From sequence record OR352942.1: a stretch of DNA of 64,000 nucleotides; one strand, given 5' to 3'. The notes below the pieces were generated by a model that searched no databases, was not told the origin of the DNA, and worked only from the letters and a program-made list of their open reading frames with translations. The position numbers and the translations under genes were made by a program. Positions 20,402-27,141 of this stretch are shown piece by piece; position 1 is the stretch's first letter, and the number at the start of each line of letters is the position of its first letter. The DNA is from Escherichia phage AV112.

Positions 20402-20683
20402 TTACTTATCGCACTTAGCAACATAATTAGGCATATCACAGAATACGGAGCGAGTAACTACTCGGCCCTTTGACCATGCTTCAGTTGCTTGTCCGGCTGT
20501 GCTATTAATATAGCTTGATCTAATGTTCTCAATACCCTGAGAATGTGATGCATTTACCGAACCATTAGAAGACCCAGAAGACTGGTTACCACCAGCTCCT
20601 GCGCTACCGCTGGCTGCACCCGTGGTAGCACCAACAGAGAATGCCATCATTACTGCGAATAAACCAATTACTATTTTTTTCAT
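20402..20683 (-). CDS. small secreted Gly/Ser-rich protein
   Basis: 93 aa; N-terminal signal-peptide-like MKKIVIGLFAVMMAFSVGA, then a Gly/Ser/Asn-rich low-complexity stretch. Confidence 0.5.
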   Translation of the reverse strand: MKKIVIGLFAVMMAFSVGATTGAASGSAGAGGNQSSGSSNGSVNASHSQGIENIRSSYINSTAGQATEAWSKGRVVTRSVFCDMPNYVAKCDK

Positions 20684-23554: not shown

Positions 23555-23857
23555 TTAGATAGATGTAGGCTCTAATTTTATTTTCATGAACTCGGCAAAT
23601 TGTCTGGCAGTTTTTATGCCTTGTTCATGACATTCAAATGCATCATCACAGGGGCTATTTTTGTAATGCTTTGCCATATACTTATAGAATTTTTCAGAAT
23701 TCTCGACATTTTGAATTTCAAACAAAGTATATACGTTTTTAATCCCTGATTCCATAAAGTTATCAAAATATGGGTCGGTATACGCAGTACCAACGTTAGG
23801 AGTTGTTGCTGCAAAAAACCCCAGCATCGCCATGACAGCTATCGCTCTTAAGGCCAT
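23555..23857 (-). CDS. rI: RI lysis-inhibition regulator (periplasmic antiholin)
   Basis: 100 aa; MALRAIAVMAMLGFFAATTP signal/SAR-like N-terminus, then DPYFDNFMESGI...YKNSPCDD.FEC...MKIKLE, resembling T4 RI as recalled; sits next to tk as in T4. Confidence 0.7.
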   Translation of the reverse strand: MALRAIAVMAMLGFFAATTPNVGTAYTDPYFDNFMESGIKNVYTLFEIQNVENSEKFYKYMAKHYKNSPCDDAFECHEQGIKTARQFAEFMKIKLEPTSI

Positions 23858-25069: not shown

Positions 25070-25287
25070 GTCACCTTTAAGCAGTATTCTTCTACATGCT
25101 GTTTACGACCTTTCTTATCAATAAAGGTATATTCAACGAATGTTCCGATGTAGTCTTTATCTACATCATGTGGACTATTAATTGGACATTTGGTACGACA
25201 AATGCGTTCCCATTGACGAATAATTACTGCCTTATTCTTTGGGTCATATGGATGTGGATAATGTATATTCATAATAATGGTTCCCAA
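25060..25287 (-). CDS. hypothetical protein
   Basis: 75-aa ORF. Confidence 0.4.
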   Translation of the reverse strand: MGTIIMNIHYPHPYDPKNKAVIIRQWERICRTKCPINSPHDVDKDYIGTFVEYTFIDKKGRKQHVEEYCLKVTWL

Positions 25288-25766
25288 TCAACAATCACAA
25301 TTTCTAGTTTAGTGGAATACGTATCTAAAATCTCTTCGATGACATCCCAGTTTCCACCACCGATACCTGCACCAATTCTTGGCATATAAATTACAGGCTT
25401 TGTTATCTTATTCTTTCCGAATTCATTTAATTCTATTATACAATTCATTAAAGCATAGTACTCAAAATTAGGTCCAGGCTCAAACTGTGTATAAAGATTA
25501 AAGCAATAAGCTTTATGGGTCTTAAAATATTTTTCATAAACCGAATAAGTCCCGAGTTTAGACTCGTCTCCGAATTCGGTTTGAAGTTTATCGGCTTCTA
25601 AAATTTTTGGATAAGCCTTTGCTAATTGTCCTGCCACACCAGCGCCCATTGTATGAAAACAATTACACCCATGAGCAATATTATTACCTTTAGAAAACAG
25701 GGCGACAATATCGCCCTTGATATAGTTTTTAATCACTTGCTGCAAGTCCTCTAGTATAAGAGTCAA
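25269..25766 (-). CDS. macro domain protein (ADP-ribose binding/hydrolase fold)
   Basis: 165 aa; macrodomain-like Gly-rich motifs HGCNCFHTMGAGVAGQL and PRIGAGIGGGNW. Confidence 0.6.
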   Translation of the reverse strand: MTLILEDLQQVIKNYIKGDIVALFSKGNNIAHGCNCFHTMGAGVAGQLAKAYPKILEADKLQTEFGDESKLGTYSVYEKYFKTHKAYCFNLYTQFEPGPNFEYYALMNCIIELNEFGKNKITKPVIYMPRIGAGIGGGNWDVIEEILDTYSTKLEIVIVDWEPLL

Positions 25767-26076
25767 CTAGACGGTCCACCATAGAATTGCATGCTGCCTT
25801 ATCTTTAGGTTCCGCCACCGAGCATTCTAATATTTGCCATTTTTTATAGTATCTTTTAATTAAGGTAGACGCCTTGAACCTACTAGTCGCCCCATCTTTT
25901 TCTCCGTCTTTATACGCATATAACAATTTTTGTGAAAAATCTACTTTACACTCTTGACTTTTACCACAATAATCAGACGCTGTTCTGTTTGTATACTCCG
26001 TTACATCAGTATATGTAGTATTAGCAAGAGCGTTAAATGAAACCAAGCCAACTATTAAAGCCAACATTTTGGTCAT
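25729..26076 (-). CDS. secreted/periplasmic protein
   Basis: 115 aa; signal peptide MTKMLALIVGLVSFNALA. Confidence 0.45.
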   Translation of the reverse strand: MTKMLALIVGLVSFNALANTTYTDVTEYTNRTASDYCGKSQECKVDFSQKLLYAYKDGEKDGATSRFKASTLIKRYYKKWQILECSVAEPKDKAACNSMVDRLVDSYTRGLAASD

Positions 26077-26615
26077 TCTTTTATTTCCAGTAGTTTGTTT
26101 GATTTAAGGTAATTAGCCTTTTCTAGGACTTCAGAAGCATATTTACTTCCAGCACTTGTCTTCCATCCCGCATTATATGAGGATATAGCTTTTCTTATAT
26201 CCCCGTTATGTATATTTAACCAATAAGAAAATTCGATATAAGCCCATCTGGCTGAATTAGACCGCTTAGATAGCATTTTCTTAATTTGGGCATCAGTCAT
26301 ATTATAACCAAGCTGGTTAATTCTTGCCCTCATTGTTGGTAGATAATTTTGGAACATTCCATACGCATGGTGACCTTTCTTATCTTTAAGATTAATACCG
26401 GCAGATGATTCCTGCCATAGTATTGCGGCCATTATGTATCCAAGTCCTTTCTTATGCATGTTTTCATGCGTTTTAAATTTTCCATCCTTAGAAAACTGTT
26501 CCCCAAACTGATAAGCATAATTCAAGTTATCGAGTTGGACATTACTAAAAGTATGCTCGGAGCTATGTGCTGATAATGAAAGAGCAAATAGACCAGCGAG
26601 TAGTGCTTTTCTCAT
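26073..26615 (-). CDS. secreted lytic transglycosylase-like (SLT domain) protein
   Basis: 180 aa; signal peptide MRKALLAGLFALSLSAHS; SLT-like motifs ILWQESSAG, GMFQ, SYNAG. Confidence 0.6.
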   Translation of the reverse strand: MRKALLAGLFALSLSAHSSEHTFSNVQLDNLNYAYQFGEQFSKDGKFKTHENMHKKGLGYIMAAILWQESSAGINLKDKKGHHAYGMFQNYLPTMRARINQLGYNMTDAQIKKMLSKRSNSARWAYIEFSYWLNIHNGDIRKAISSYNAGWKTSAGSKYASEVLEKANYLKSNKLLEIKE

Positions 26616-26623
26616 GTTTACCT

Positions 26624-27082
26624 CTAGATTTTAATCACTGCTTTAGAAGCTTTTCCTGGTAGTCGTTTACTGTTAATAATAGCCATTCTGCATTGAAGAG
26701 TCTTCATTTTGAACGCTGGATTTTCGCGACAAACTGTAAGTCCTAACCAAAGATTTCCGTCAGTTATTTCTAAACGGCCTGGGCGATATTCGACACCTTC
26801 GACAAAATCTTCATCAACATCTGGACGTGCCGGCATTGATAAAAATTCTGTAACTTCTTTAACATGATTTTTTACTTTACGAAATAATTCAAAAACGTAG
26901 TTCTCATCTATTTCTCTCTGGATGGCACGATCTAAGAGATGTTGAGAATACTTGATATGAAAGCCTGGTAGTCCAAGAGACTTTGCAGCATCTTTTATAC
27001 CGGCATTTATTTTGCGGAACTCCGTTTCAAAGATTCGACGGAGTTTATTACGGCGGATAAAAACGTCAGAATTGATAGTCAT
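26624..27082 (-). CDS. regB: RegB endoribonuclease
   Basis: 152 aa; closely matches T4 RegB as recalled (MTIN..VFIRRNKLRR.FE.EFR...KYSQHLLDRAIQREIDE.YVFELF...ITDGNLWLG.TVC...CRMAIINS.RLPGKASKAVIK). Confidence 0.85.
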   Translation of the reverse strand: MTINSDVFIRRNKLRRIFETEFRKINAGIKDAAKSLGLPGFHIKYSQHLLDRAIQREIDENYVFELFRKVKNHVKEVTEFLSMPARPDVDEDFVEGVEYRPGRLEITDGNLWLGLTVCRENPAFKMKTLQCRMAIINSKRLPGKASKAVIKI

Positions 27083-27104
27083 TTTTTATTTCTCCTCTAG
27101 TTGA

Positions 27105-27141
27105 CAGGTCTATAGTAACACATCTAGAGGAGAAGTAAACT
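27105..27141 (-). promoter_or_regulatory. early promoter with flanking inverted repeat CCTCTAG/CTAGAGG
   Basis: RC reads GTTTAC-N17-TGTTACTATAG; the -10 is enclosed by a 7-bp inverted repeat. Confidence 0.5.

What the first reader, a model, noticed from the sequence alone, without database searches (positions are those of the whole stretch)
25729..26615. Early-region secreted proteins including an SLT-domain lytic transglycosylase
Two adjacent early genes encode signal-peptide proteins; one (26073-26615) has SLT-like motifs (ILWQESSAG, GMFQ, SYNAG). With RI (23555-23857) and the Gly/Ser-rich secreted protein (20402-20683), several early products appear aimed at the periplasm, where they could remodel peptidoglycan, regulate lysis timing or block superinfection.
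Basis: partly seen in the sequence, partly recalled or inferred. Interest (0 to 1): 0.4.

Follow-up and report, generated by a model that had tools for sequence, protein, structure and literature searches.

The report
T4 vs.1–vs secreted gene pair
These are the well-known T4-type genes vs.1 (a secreted cell-wall-cutting enzyme of the SLT type, noted since 2003-2006) and vs. The odd point is that vs, long annotated as a cytoplasmic "valyl-tRNA synthetase modifier", looks everywhere like an exported, disulfide-stapled partner of vs.1.

Summary
On the minus strand, 26073-26615 (180 aa) and 25729-26076 (115 aa) are real genes of a T4-like Mosigvirus. They are 100% identical to Escherichia phage AV113 and are the orthologues of T4 vs.1 and vs.

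- Every full-length orthologue, in three diverged branches, keeps a signal peptide and two cysteine pairs on a four-helix bundle.
- The gene sits directly after vs.1 and overlaps it by ATGA in this window.
- Published transposon data show that vs and vs.1 mutants, unlike their neighbours, share a fitness cost. vs is the strongest hit in minimal medium.

I read the pair as a periplasmic module. Muralytic activity, export and the ValRS link are untested here.

The parts
26073..26615 (-). vs.1 orthologue, 180 aa: exported SLT/GH23-type lytic-transglycosylase-like protein
26562..26615 (-). Vs.1 signal peptide (residues 1-18, MRKALLAGLFALSLSAHS, predicted cleavage AHS|SEH)
   Evidence: n/h/c layout conserved in the orthologues despite sequence divergence. 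Passes the uniform filter that only 3 of 105 window ORFs pass. Low pLDDT for the first 20 residues.
26397..26423 (-). Vs.1 motif I, ILWQESSAG (residues 65-73), with the putative catalytic Glu69 (codon 26409-26411)
   Evidence: E69 and S71 are invariant in 37 orthologues. hhalign places E69 on the Glu of the 'QES' motif of E. coli Slt70 and the 'IES' motif of MltE. Both alignments are weak, E about 0.045.
26349..26360 (-). Vs.1 motif II, GMFQ (residues 86-89), equivalent to GLMQ of family-1 lytic transglycosylases
   Evidence: G86 and Q89 invariant. Aligned with GLMQ of Slt70 and MltE.
26166..26180 (-). Vs.1 motif III, SYNAG (residues 146-150), equivalent to AYNxG
   Evidence: Y147, N148 and G150 invariant; S146 and A149 at least 90% conserved.
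25729..26076 (-). vs orthologue, 115 aa ('valyl-tRNA synthetase modifier'): small four-helix protein with a signal peptide and two Cys pairs
   Evidence: phrog_1256 at 1e-34. 66% identical to T4 ORF 60.9/vs. AF2 pLDDT 87 with helices 20-37, 41-64, 69-85 and 90-113. No specific fold or sequence relative in PDB or Pfam.
26023..26076 (-). Vs signal peptide (residues 1-18, MTKMLALIVGLVSFNALA, predicted cleavage ALA|NTT)
   Evidence: pLDDT below 50 for residues 1-15 while the rest is above 90. Predicted mature protein is 97 aa, 11.0 kDa.
25948..25968 (-). Vs first Cys pair, C37-x5-C43, at the helix 1/helix 2 turn
   Evidence: Both at least 90% conserved. Both are lost together in the 85-aa Dhakavirus form.
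25789..25824 (-). Vs second Cys pair, C85-x10-C96, at the helix 3/helix 4 turn, followed by the near-invariant C-terminal SMVDRLVDSYxRGL
   Evidence: C85 and C96 invariant. The same pair is present with variable spacing in the Klebsiella/Acinetobacter and Pseudotevenvirus branches.
26073..26076 (-). ATGA overlap of the vs.1 stop and the vs start (translational coupling)
   Evidence: Sequence read directly. Tight linkage is also seen in T4 (8-nt overlap), VR26, F48, JD18 and PhT2.
26624..27082 (-). regB (endoribonuclease), the gene immediately upstream in the same transcription direction
   Evidence: Pfam REGB_T4 at 8.1e-69. Synteny regB-vs.1-vs-tk.4.
27112..27140 (-). Promoter-like GTTTAC-17 nt-TACTAT upstream of regB, the likely early promoter for regB-vs.1-vs
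   Evidence: Sequence read directly. Its resemblance to the T4 early-promoter consensus is from my own knowledge. No terminator-like site lies between regB and vs on this strand.
25269..25736 (-). tk.4/adfM orthologue (macro domain), the downstream neighbour. Its probable GTG start at 25736 overlaps the vs stop
   Evidence: Pfam Macro at 3.4e-6. T4 Tk.4 = AdfM, an anti-DarTG2 factor (preprint 10.1101/2025.11.20.689424). Start inferred and the F48 orthologue.

Best explanation
The two ORFs are the vs.1 and vs genes of a T4-like Mosigvirus. They are transcribed early with regB and translated as a coupled pair.

Vs.1 is exported by the Sec pathway and its signal peptide is removed after about residue 18. 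The mature protein is a periplasmic single-domain enzyme of about 18.7 kDa, of the SLT (family 1, GH23) lytic-transglycosylase type. Glu69 would act as the single acid/base that cleaves the MurNAc-GlcNAc bond of peptidoglycan.

Vs is also exported. It folds in the periplasm into an 11-kDa four-helix bundle whose two helix-helix turns are each stapled by a disulfide. It works with or on Vs.1, as a partner or a restraint. Together they form a peptidoglycan-remodelling module that is not essential but raises phage fitness, most visibly in minimal medium.

Shown here: gene identity, fold, motif conservation, the conserved export signals and Cys pairs, the linkage, and (from published data) the shared mutant fitness cost.

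Inferred: actual export and cleavage, disulfide formation, enzymatic activity, any Vs-Vs.1 contact, and the physiological role.
For: Identity:
- 100% nucleotide identity to phage AV113. The orthologues are annotated regB / vs.1 / vs / macro-domain in related records and in T4.

Vs.1 as an SLT-type enzyme:
- The motif residues are invariant in 37 orthologues.
- 33 of 37 orthologues hit Pfam SLT, the best at 1.3e-7.
- The AF2 model is confident.
- E69 and GMFQ align to the catalytic Glu and GLMQ of E. coli Slt70 and MltE.

Export:
- The n/h/c signal-peptide layout is conserved in both families while the sequence drifts.
- Only 3 of 105 window ORFs pass the same filter.

Vs as a periplasmic protein:
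- The four Cys are near-invariant and lie at two helix-helix turns.
- The first pair is lost as a pair in one lineage.
- The spacing within the pairs varies between branches: C-x5-C or C-x11-C, and C-x8-C to C-x10-C. This fits disulfide staples better than a metal site.
- N-terminally His-tagged full-length T4 Vs was insoluble in the cytoplasm (PMC8076793).

Module:
- vs lies directly after vs.1, overlapping or abutting it, in Tevenvirinae and in Acinetobacter Twarogvirinae. One gene intervenes in a Pseudotevenvirus.
- The branches are homologous: hhalign gives 97.9% probability (E 4e-13) and 85% (E 6e-6), and all three hit phrog_1256.

Phenotype (HIDEN-SEQ preprint supplements):
- T4 insertion counts in LB are vs 26.6 and vs.1 22.6, against 127.7-652.1 for the flanking tk, regB, tk.4 and vs.3.
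- In M9 glucose, vs shows log2FC -2.19 (adjusted p 0) and vs.1 shows -0.87 (p 0.0055, adjusted p 0.155).
- The same specific under-representation appears in phage Bas37: vs 23.5 and vs.1 73.8, against 324-537 for the flanking genes bas37_0222, 0223, 0226 and 0227.

Timing:
- Both T4 proteins are detected, and both are classed early RNA / middle protein.
Against: - No dedicated signal-peptide predictor and no experiment was available, so export is inferred from rule-based features.
- The window protein itself scores below Pfam's SLT gathering threshold. Sequence and profile searches against PDB chains find no SLT protein. Foldseek E-values are weak, 0.018 at best.
- Lytic-transglycosylase chemistry cannot be told from lysozyme chemistry by sequence.
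- The classical literature (Neidhardt, Marchin and co-workers; my own knowledge, and cited in PMC8076793) reports that the vs product binds cytoplasmic valyl-tRNA synthetase. An exclusively periplasmic Vs does not explain that.
- Insertions in vs.1 may be polar on vs, so the shared fitness cost need not mean a shared pathway.
- T4 early genes are densely packed and often overlap, so coupling alone is weak evidence of a functional link.
- vs.1-like genes in Slopekvirus-like, Kuttervirus, Aeromonas and Vibrio phages have no adjacent vs.
Confidence: 0.55

Rival explanations
1. Vs is what the annotation says: a cytoplasmic protein that binds host valyl-tRNA synthetase. The hydrophobic N-terminus is not a working export signal, or only part of the protein is exported. 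The four Cys bind a metal or are structural. Adjacency to vs.1 simply reflects the dense packing of T4 early genes. The minimal-medium phenotype comes from altered valine charging when amino acids must be synthesised.
For: - The classical genetics and biochemistry of the vs locus tie it to ValRS (my own knowledge; summarised in PMC8076793).
- vs is the strongest minimal-medium hit in HIDEN-SEQ, which fits an amino-acid/translation role.
- In M9 the vs phenotype is stronger than that of vs.1.
- Many T4 early genes overlap their neighbours, for example vs with tk.4.
Against: - The signal-peptide layout is kept in every full-length member of three diverged branches, including Acinetobacter phages, while the sequence itself is not conserved.
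- There is no internal Met that could start a signal-less form before residue 99.
- The Cys pairs vary in spacing, and one pair can be lost as a unit.
- The reported size of about 10 kDa for the ValRS-bound factor (my own knowledge) fits the processed 11.0-11.2 kDa form better than the 13.1 kDa precursor. Processing implies passage through the Sec machinery.
Confidence: 0.3
2. Vs is a periplasmic inhibitor or restraint of Vs.1. The layout copies muramidase effector/immunity pairs: enzyme gene first, then a small signal-peptide protein gene coupled to it. Vs would keep an early-made wall-cutting enzyme from lysing the cell prematurely.
For: - Gene order, coupling and export signals fit this layout.
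- In M9, vs insertions are more harmful (log2FC -2.19) than vs.1 insertions (-0.87). That is expected if losing the restraint is worse than losing both genes.
Against: - In LB the two mutants are equally under-represented, which a pure antidote model does not predict.
- The Vs fold matches no known lysozyme or transglycosylase inhibitor: no Ivy, PliC/MliC, PliG, LprI or Spackle among the hits.
- Many vs.1-like genes exist without vs.
- No complex model was run.
Confidence: 0.2
3. Vs.1 has the fold but is not a lytic transglycosylase. It could be a hydrolytic goose-type lysozyme or chitinase-like enzyme, or a non-catalytic glycan-binding protein.
For: - The window protein is below the Pfam SLT threshold.
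- PDB sequence searches find no SLT protein.
Against: - The family-1 motifs (E-S, G-x-x-Q, Y-N-x-G) are all present and invariant.
- The alignment column summary shows no invariant acidic residue after E69 other than E128. I did not examine whether E128 could serve as a second catalytic carboxylate, as in hydrolytic lysozymes.
- Invariance of the catalytic Glu argues against a purely binding role.
Confidence: 0.12
4. Vs.1 is an auxiliary or SAR-type endolysin that contributes to host lysis at the end of infection.
For: It is a muralytic fold with an N-terminal hydrophobic segment. Nolan et al. 2006 suggested 'some role in cell lysis'.
Against: - The h-region is only about 13 uncharged residues and is followed by an AxS/AxA cleavage site. 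That is typical of a cleaved signal peptide, not a membrane-tethered SAR domain.
- The gene is expressed early, not with the lysis genes.
- It is non-essential (HIDEN-SEQ sheet S2), and the phage carries a holin/antiholin system: rI lies in this window and the T4 holin gene t is essential.
Confidence: 0.05

Closest known systems
Bacteriophage T4 Vs.1 (ORF 61.4, UniProt P13311; phrog_600)
   Same: Orthologue: 83% identity over 99% of the length. It has the same position between regB and vs, the same length class, and the same signal peptide and SLT motifs.
   Different: Only ordinary sequence divergence (Mosigvirus versus Tequatrovirus). No functional study of T4 Vs.1 was found in the searchable literature.
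Bacteriophage T4 Vs, 'valyl-tRNA synthetase modifier' (ORF 60.9, UniProt P13310; phrog_1256; PF26829 in newer Pfam)
   Same: Orthologue: 66% identity, the same length, the same four Cys, the same C-terminal SMVDRLVDSYxRGL, and the same position after vs.1.
   Different: Nothing separates the window protein from the family. The difference lies between the family's sequence features (export signal, paired Cys) and its annotated cytoplasmic function.
Family-1 (SLT, GH23) lytic transglycosylases: E. coli Slt70 catalytic domain, MltE/EmtA, MltC, P. aeruginosa MltF and Slt, EtgA
   Different: - It is a single small domain, with no superhelical, LysM or ABC-substrate-binding-like accessory domains and no lipobox.
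- It has its own conserved N-terminal helix (FSxxQxxNLxxAYxFGEQ).
- Sequence similarity is marginal: below the Pfam threshold for this protein, and no PDB sequence hit.
- It is phage-encoded and made early.
T4 Spackle (gp61.3) and RI: other small T4 proteins exported to the periplasm
   Same: Small helical proteins with N-terminal export signals, made by the same kind of phage and acting in the periplasm. Spackle inhibits a lysozyme (my own knowledge). RI has a cleavable signal peptide (PMC8385771 title and abstract).
Muramidase effector / periplasmic immunity gene pairs (e.g. Tse3-Tsi3)
   Different: This is a resemblance of arrangement only. There is no sequence or fold relation of Vs to any immunity protein, and no secretion system is involved.

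Membership tests
SLT / family-1 lytic transglycosylase (Pfam PF01464, GH23) | Lysozyme-like all-helical fold | tested here: met
SLT / family-1 lytic transglycosylase (Pfam PF01464, GH23) | Catalytic Glu in an E-S motif at the end of a helix | tested here: met
   E69-S70-S71. E69 and S71 are invariant in 37 orthologues. Helix 59-70 ends at the motif. E69 aligns with the Glu of 'QES' in Slt70 and 'IES' in MltE, in weak hhalign alignments.
SLT / family-1 lytic transglycosylase (Pfam PF01464, GH23) | Motifs G-L-M-Q and A-Y-N-x-G downstream of the catalytic Glu | tested here: met
   G86-M-F-Q89 and S146-Y-N-A-G150. G86, Q89, Y147, N148 and G150 are invariant.
SLT / family-1 lytic transglycosylase (Pfam PF01464, GH23) | Score above Pfam's curated gathering threshold | tested here: not met
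   18.8 bits against a cut-off of 21.3 for the window protein. However, 33 of 37 orthologues match at E<=0.01, the best at 1.3e-7, and several carry a precomputed PF01464 assignment.
SLT / family-1 lytic transglycosylase (Pfam PF01464, GH23) | Non-hydrolytic cleavage that yields 1,6-anhydro-MurNAc products | not testable with these tools
   Needs purified protein, sacculi and LC-MS.
Sec-dependent cleavable signal peptide (both proteins) | Positive n-region, 7-15-residue hydrophobic h-region, small residues at -3/-1, polar mature N-terminus | tested here: met
   Rule-based analysis of 37 + 39 orthologues. Only 3 of 105 window ORFs pass the filter. No lipobox is conserved. SignalP-type predictors were not available.
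Sec-dependent cleavable signal peptide (both proteins) | Actual translocation and cleavage by signal peptidase I | not testable with these tools
   Needs fractionation, N-terminal mass spectrometry or PhoA fusions.
T4 Vs family (phrog_1256 / PF26829) | Sequence membership and position after vs.1 | tested here: met
   phrog_1256 at 1e-34. 66% identity to T4 ORF 60.9. Synteny.
T4 Vs family (phrog_1256 / PF26829) | Binding to and modification of host valyl-tRNA synthetase | not testable with these tools
   Known only from the classical T4 literature (cited in PMC8076793).
Known periplasmic lysozyme/transglycosylase inhibitors (Ivy, PliC/MliC, PliG, LprI/DUF1311, Spackle) | Sequence or fold similarity of Vs to any of them | tested here: not met
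SAR endolysin | N-terminal weakly hydrophobic transmembrane domain of about 18-20 residues without a signal-peptidase site | tested here: not met
   The Vs.1 h-region is about 13 residues and is followed by AHS|S. Equivalent AxS/AxG/AxA sites are present in the orthologues.

The most novel reading that the evidence does not exclude
The classical T4 'valyl-tRNA synthetase modifier' Vs is primarily an exported, disulfide-bonded periplasmic protein that works with the Vs.1 transglycosylase. Either the ValRS association arises after export and processing (for example on cell breakage, or through a minor cytoplasmic pool), or the assignment of the genetic vs function to this ORF needs re-examination. 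The minimal-medium defect of vs mutants would then be an envelope or peptidoglycan-turnover phenotype rather than a translation phenotype.
Probability: 0.35. Interest if true: 0.65.

Novelty: already known. Interest (0 to 1): 0.35.

Why it matters
The genes are vs.1 and vs of a T4-like phage. The SLT similarity of vs.1 has been in print since 2006 and appears in many GenBank and UniRef names.

A gene annotated for decades as a cytoplasmic modifier of valyl-tRNA synthetase carries a conserved export signal and paired cysteines, and it is coupled to a periplasmic wall-cutting enzyme. In 2025 transposon data it is also the strongest minimal-medium fitness gene of T4, with "biological role not known".

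If Vs is periplasmic, the old open question of what vs is for becomes directly testable with simple fractionation, double-mutant and enzyme assays. Hundreds of phage annotations would then be misleading.

Tried and rejected
- **PDB sequence searches.** Single-sequence and profile searches for Vs.1 found nothing relevant. Only fold comparison worked.
  - I looked for similarity to LprI/DUF1311-type or other lysozyme inhibitors and to Spackle and found none, so that idea is dropped as a homology claim.
  - NCBIfam gave nothing for either protein.
- **hhalign of the Vs.1 alignment against single E. coli Slt70 and MltE sequences.** It gave only weak scores (E about 0.045). I use these only for the register of the catalytic motif.
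- **First homologue searches for Vs.** The word-indexed search found only 4 proteins and the all-against-all search only 7. A profile query and tblastn were needed to see the family.
- **Classical vs papers and the 2003 T4 genome review.** Attempts to read them failed because they are not held. How the genetic vs locus was assigned to ORF 60.9, and whether ValRS modification was shown in vivo, therefore rests on my memory and is marked as such.
- **Literature searches.** I found no functional study of Vs.1 and no mention of a Vs signal peptide.
- **Model coordinates.** They are not exposed, so Cys-Cys distances could not be measured.
- **Sigma-70 consensus scan.** It found no more promoter-like sites than in shuffled sequence (15 against 17.8), so it is uninformative here.
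Full report
**What is at the coordinates**

The surrounding 1.9 kb is 100% identical to Escherichia phage AV113 and 98-99% identical to many Mosigvirus genomes.

The gene order matches that of phage T4: regB (Pfam REGB_T4, 8e-69), the 180-aa gene, the 115-aa gene, a macro-domain gene, small ORFs, then tk. In T4 the 180-aa gene corresponds to vs.1 (ORF 61.4, 83% identity). The 115-aa gene corresponds to vs (ORF 60.9, 66% identity), annotated "valyl-tRNA synthetase modifier". The finding therefore concerns two long-catalogued T4-type genes.

**Vs.1 as an SLT-type enzyme**

- The window protein alone matches Pfam SLT only marginally (E 0.0013, 18.8 bits against a cut-off of 21.3). Sequence searches against PDB chains find no SLT protein.
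- The family evidence is stronger. In 37 orthologues that fall to about 40% identity, E69, S71, G86, Q89, N90, Y147, N148, G150 and Y159 are invariant. Of the 37 orthologues, 33 hit Pfam SLT, the best at 1.3e-7.
- Weak hhalign alignments to E. coli Slt70 and MltE, fetched from MG1655, put E69 on their 'QES' / 'IES' glutamate and GMFQ on GLMQ.
- I conclude that Vs.1 has the family-1 lytic-transglycosylase fold with an intact active-site motif set. Whether it makes anhydro-muropeptides or hydrolyses the bond cannot be told here.

**Signal peptides**

No dedicated predictor was available, so I used explicit rules.

- Vs.1 starts MRKALLAGLFALSLSAHS|SEH. Vs starts MTKMLALIVGLVSFNALA|NTT. Each has K/R and no acidic residue before an uncharged 13-16-residue core, then small residues at -3/-1.
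- The same layout is present in essentially every full-length orthologue of both families, although the residues themselves differ. The few exceptions have mis-called or truncated starts.
- A single filter applied to 105 non-overlapping ORFs of the window passes only these two and the 93-aa ORF at 20402-20683.
- The AF2 models leave the first 15-20 residues at low confidence while the rest is above 90.
- The h-region of Vs.1 is too short, and too clearly followed by a cleavage site, for a SAR anchor.

The family is small and phage-restricted. The AF2 model is a confident four-helix bundle (helices 20-37, 41-64, 69-85, 90-113). It has no specific structural or sequence relative.

The four cysteines are near-invariant. 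They lie in two pairs at consecutive helix-helix turns: C37-x5-C43 and C85-x10-C96.

- An 85-aa Dhakavirus form has lost the first pair as a unit and kept the second.
- Directly after vs.1 in Klebsiella phage JD18 and Acinetobacter phage PhT2 lies a diverged homologue with a signal peptide and the same two pairs. hhalign gives 97.9% probability, E 4e-13. This branch occurs in 306 phage records.
- A third branch, in Citrobacter phage IME-CF2, has one gene between vs.1 and vs. It again has a signal peptide and two pairs, with different spacing.
- All three branches hit phrog_1256.

Variable spacing and loss of a pair as a unit fit disulfide staples formed in an oxidising compartment better than a metal site.

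**Linkage and expression**

- In the window the vs.1 stop and the vs start overlap as ATGA, and vs has no clear Shine-Dalgarno sequence of its own.
- A GTTTAC-17-TACTAT element precedes regB. No terminator-like site separates regB, vs.1 and vs on this strand.
- In T4 both genes are classed early RNA / middle protein, and both proteins are detected (PMC9697503 supplements).
- More distant vs.1-like genes (Slopekvirus-like, Kuttervirus, Aeromonas and Vibrio phages) keep the signal peptide and the E-S motif but have no adjacent vs.

**Published phenotypes**

The HIDEN-SEQ preprint (10.1101/2025.11.20.689424) reports vs as the most depleted T4 gene in M9 glucose relative to LB. It confirms the result with a vs knockout and states that the biological role of the ValRS modification is unknown.

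| Phage / condition | vs | vs.1 | Flanking genes |
|---|---|---|---|
| T4, LB liquid, mean insertion counts | 26.6 | 22.6 | tk 127.7, regB 178.6, tk.4 289.6, vs.3 652.1 |
| T4, M9 glucose, mean insertion counts | 5.0 | 11.9 | – |
| T4, M9 vs LB, log2FC | -2.19 (adj. p 0) | -0.87 (p 0.0055, adj. p 0.155) | – |
| Bas37, LB liquid, mean insertion counts | 23.5 | 73.8 | 324-537 |

An independent T4 LB control shows the same under-representation of both genes. Both genes are classed 'non-essential'. So the two genes, and not their neighbours, share a fitness cost. Polarity of vs.1 insertions on vs could explain the vs.1 part.

N-terminally His-tagged full-length T4 Vs was insoluble in E. coli (PMC8076793). 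That is compatible with a blocked export signal but is not specific.

**Interpretation**

The best-supported reading is a co-expressed periplasmic pair. Vs.1 is a small SLT-type peptidoglycan glycan-strand cleaving enzyme, and Vs is an exported disulfide-stapled helical protein that acts with it or restrains it.

The main rival is the textbook reading, in which Vs acts in the cytoplasm on ValRS. The classical work could not be read here. From memory, it includes in vivo genetics linking vs to valS, which a purely periplasmic Vs does not explain. Also from memory, it reports a factor of about 10 kDa. That fits the processed 11.0-11.2 kDa form better than the 13.1 kDa precursor. The tension is unresolved and is the only unusual aspect of this locus.

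**Verdict**

The SLT similarity of vs.1 was published in 2006 with reference to earlier work (PMC1524935) and appears in many database names, so the finding as stated is already known. I give moderate interest only because of the Vs export/ValRS contradiction and its new link to a minimal-medium phenotype.

Noticed in passing
window 25269-25766 (- strand): The macro-domain gene after vs is the orthologue of T4 tk.4, recently named AdfM, an anti-DarTG2 factor (preprint 10.1101/2025.11.20.689424). Its listed TTG start at 25766 lies inside vs. Comparison with orthologues suggests a GTG start at 25736 that overlaps the vs stop (GTGATTAA). Some GenBank records annotate a much shorter CDS.
   Followed up: partly
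window 25699-25717 (- strand): A terminator-like hairpin (AGGGCGATATTGTCGCCCT followed by GTTTTCT; 8 pairs, 5 of them G-C) lies just after the vs stop, inside the 5' end of the macro-domain gene. It may partly insulate regB-vs.1-vs from the downstream genes.
   Followed up: no
window 20402-20683 (- strand): A 93-aa protein with a clear signal peptide, a Gly/Ser/Ala-rich low-complexity stretch and two C-terminal Cys. It belongs to phrog_2243 (unknown function). It is the only other ORF of 105 that passes the signal-peptide filter.
   Followed up: partly
window 27094-27130 (- strand): An inverted repeat CCTCTAG...CTAGAGG upstream of regB encloses the -10-like hexamer and pairs with the regB Shine-Dalgarno sequence (GAGG). 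The T4 record annotates the equivalent as inverted repeat D/D' and a potential terminator.
   Followed up: no
GenBank records matched: Annotation of these two genes is inconsistent. vs.1 is labelled 'endoribonuclease RegB', 'leucine aminopeptidase subunit E domain 1', 'lysozyme' or 'C-type lysozyme/alpha-lactalbumin family protein'. vs is labelled 'valyl-tRNA synthetase' (the enzyme itself) or 'tail fibers protein'.
   Followed up: no
L005:1399-1656 (Escherichia phage vB_EcoM_005, Dhakavirus): A shortened 85-aa Vs has lost the end of helix 1 through most of helix 2, including the first Cys pair. It keeps the signal peptide, the second Cys pair and the invariant C-terminus.
   Followed up: partly
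window 23555-23857 (- strand): The RI antiholin orthologue (phrog_1246) did not pass my simple cleavage-site filter, although T4 RI is reported to have a cleavable signal peptide (PMC8385771). The filter is therefore conservative.
   Followed up: no
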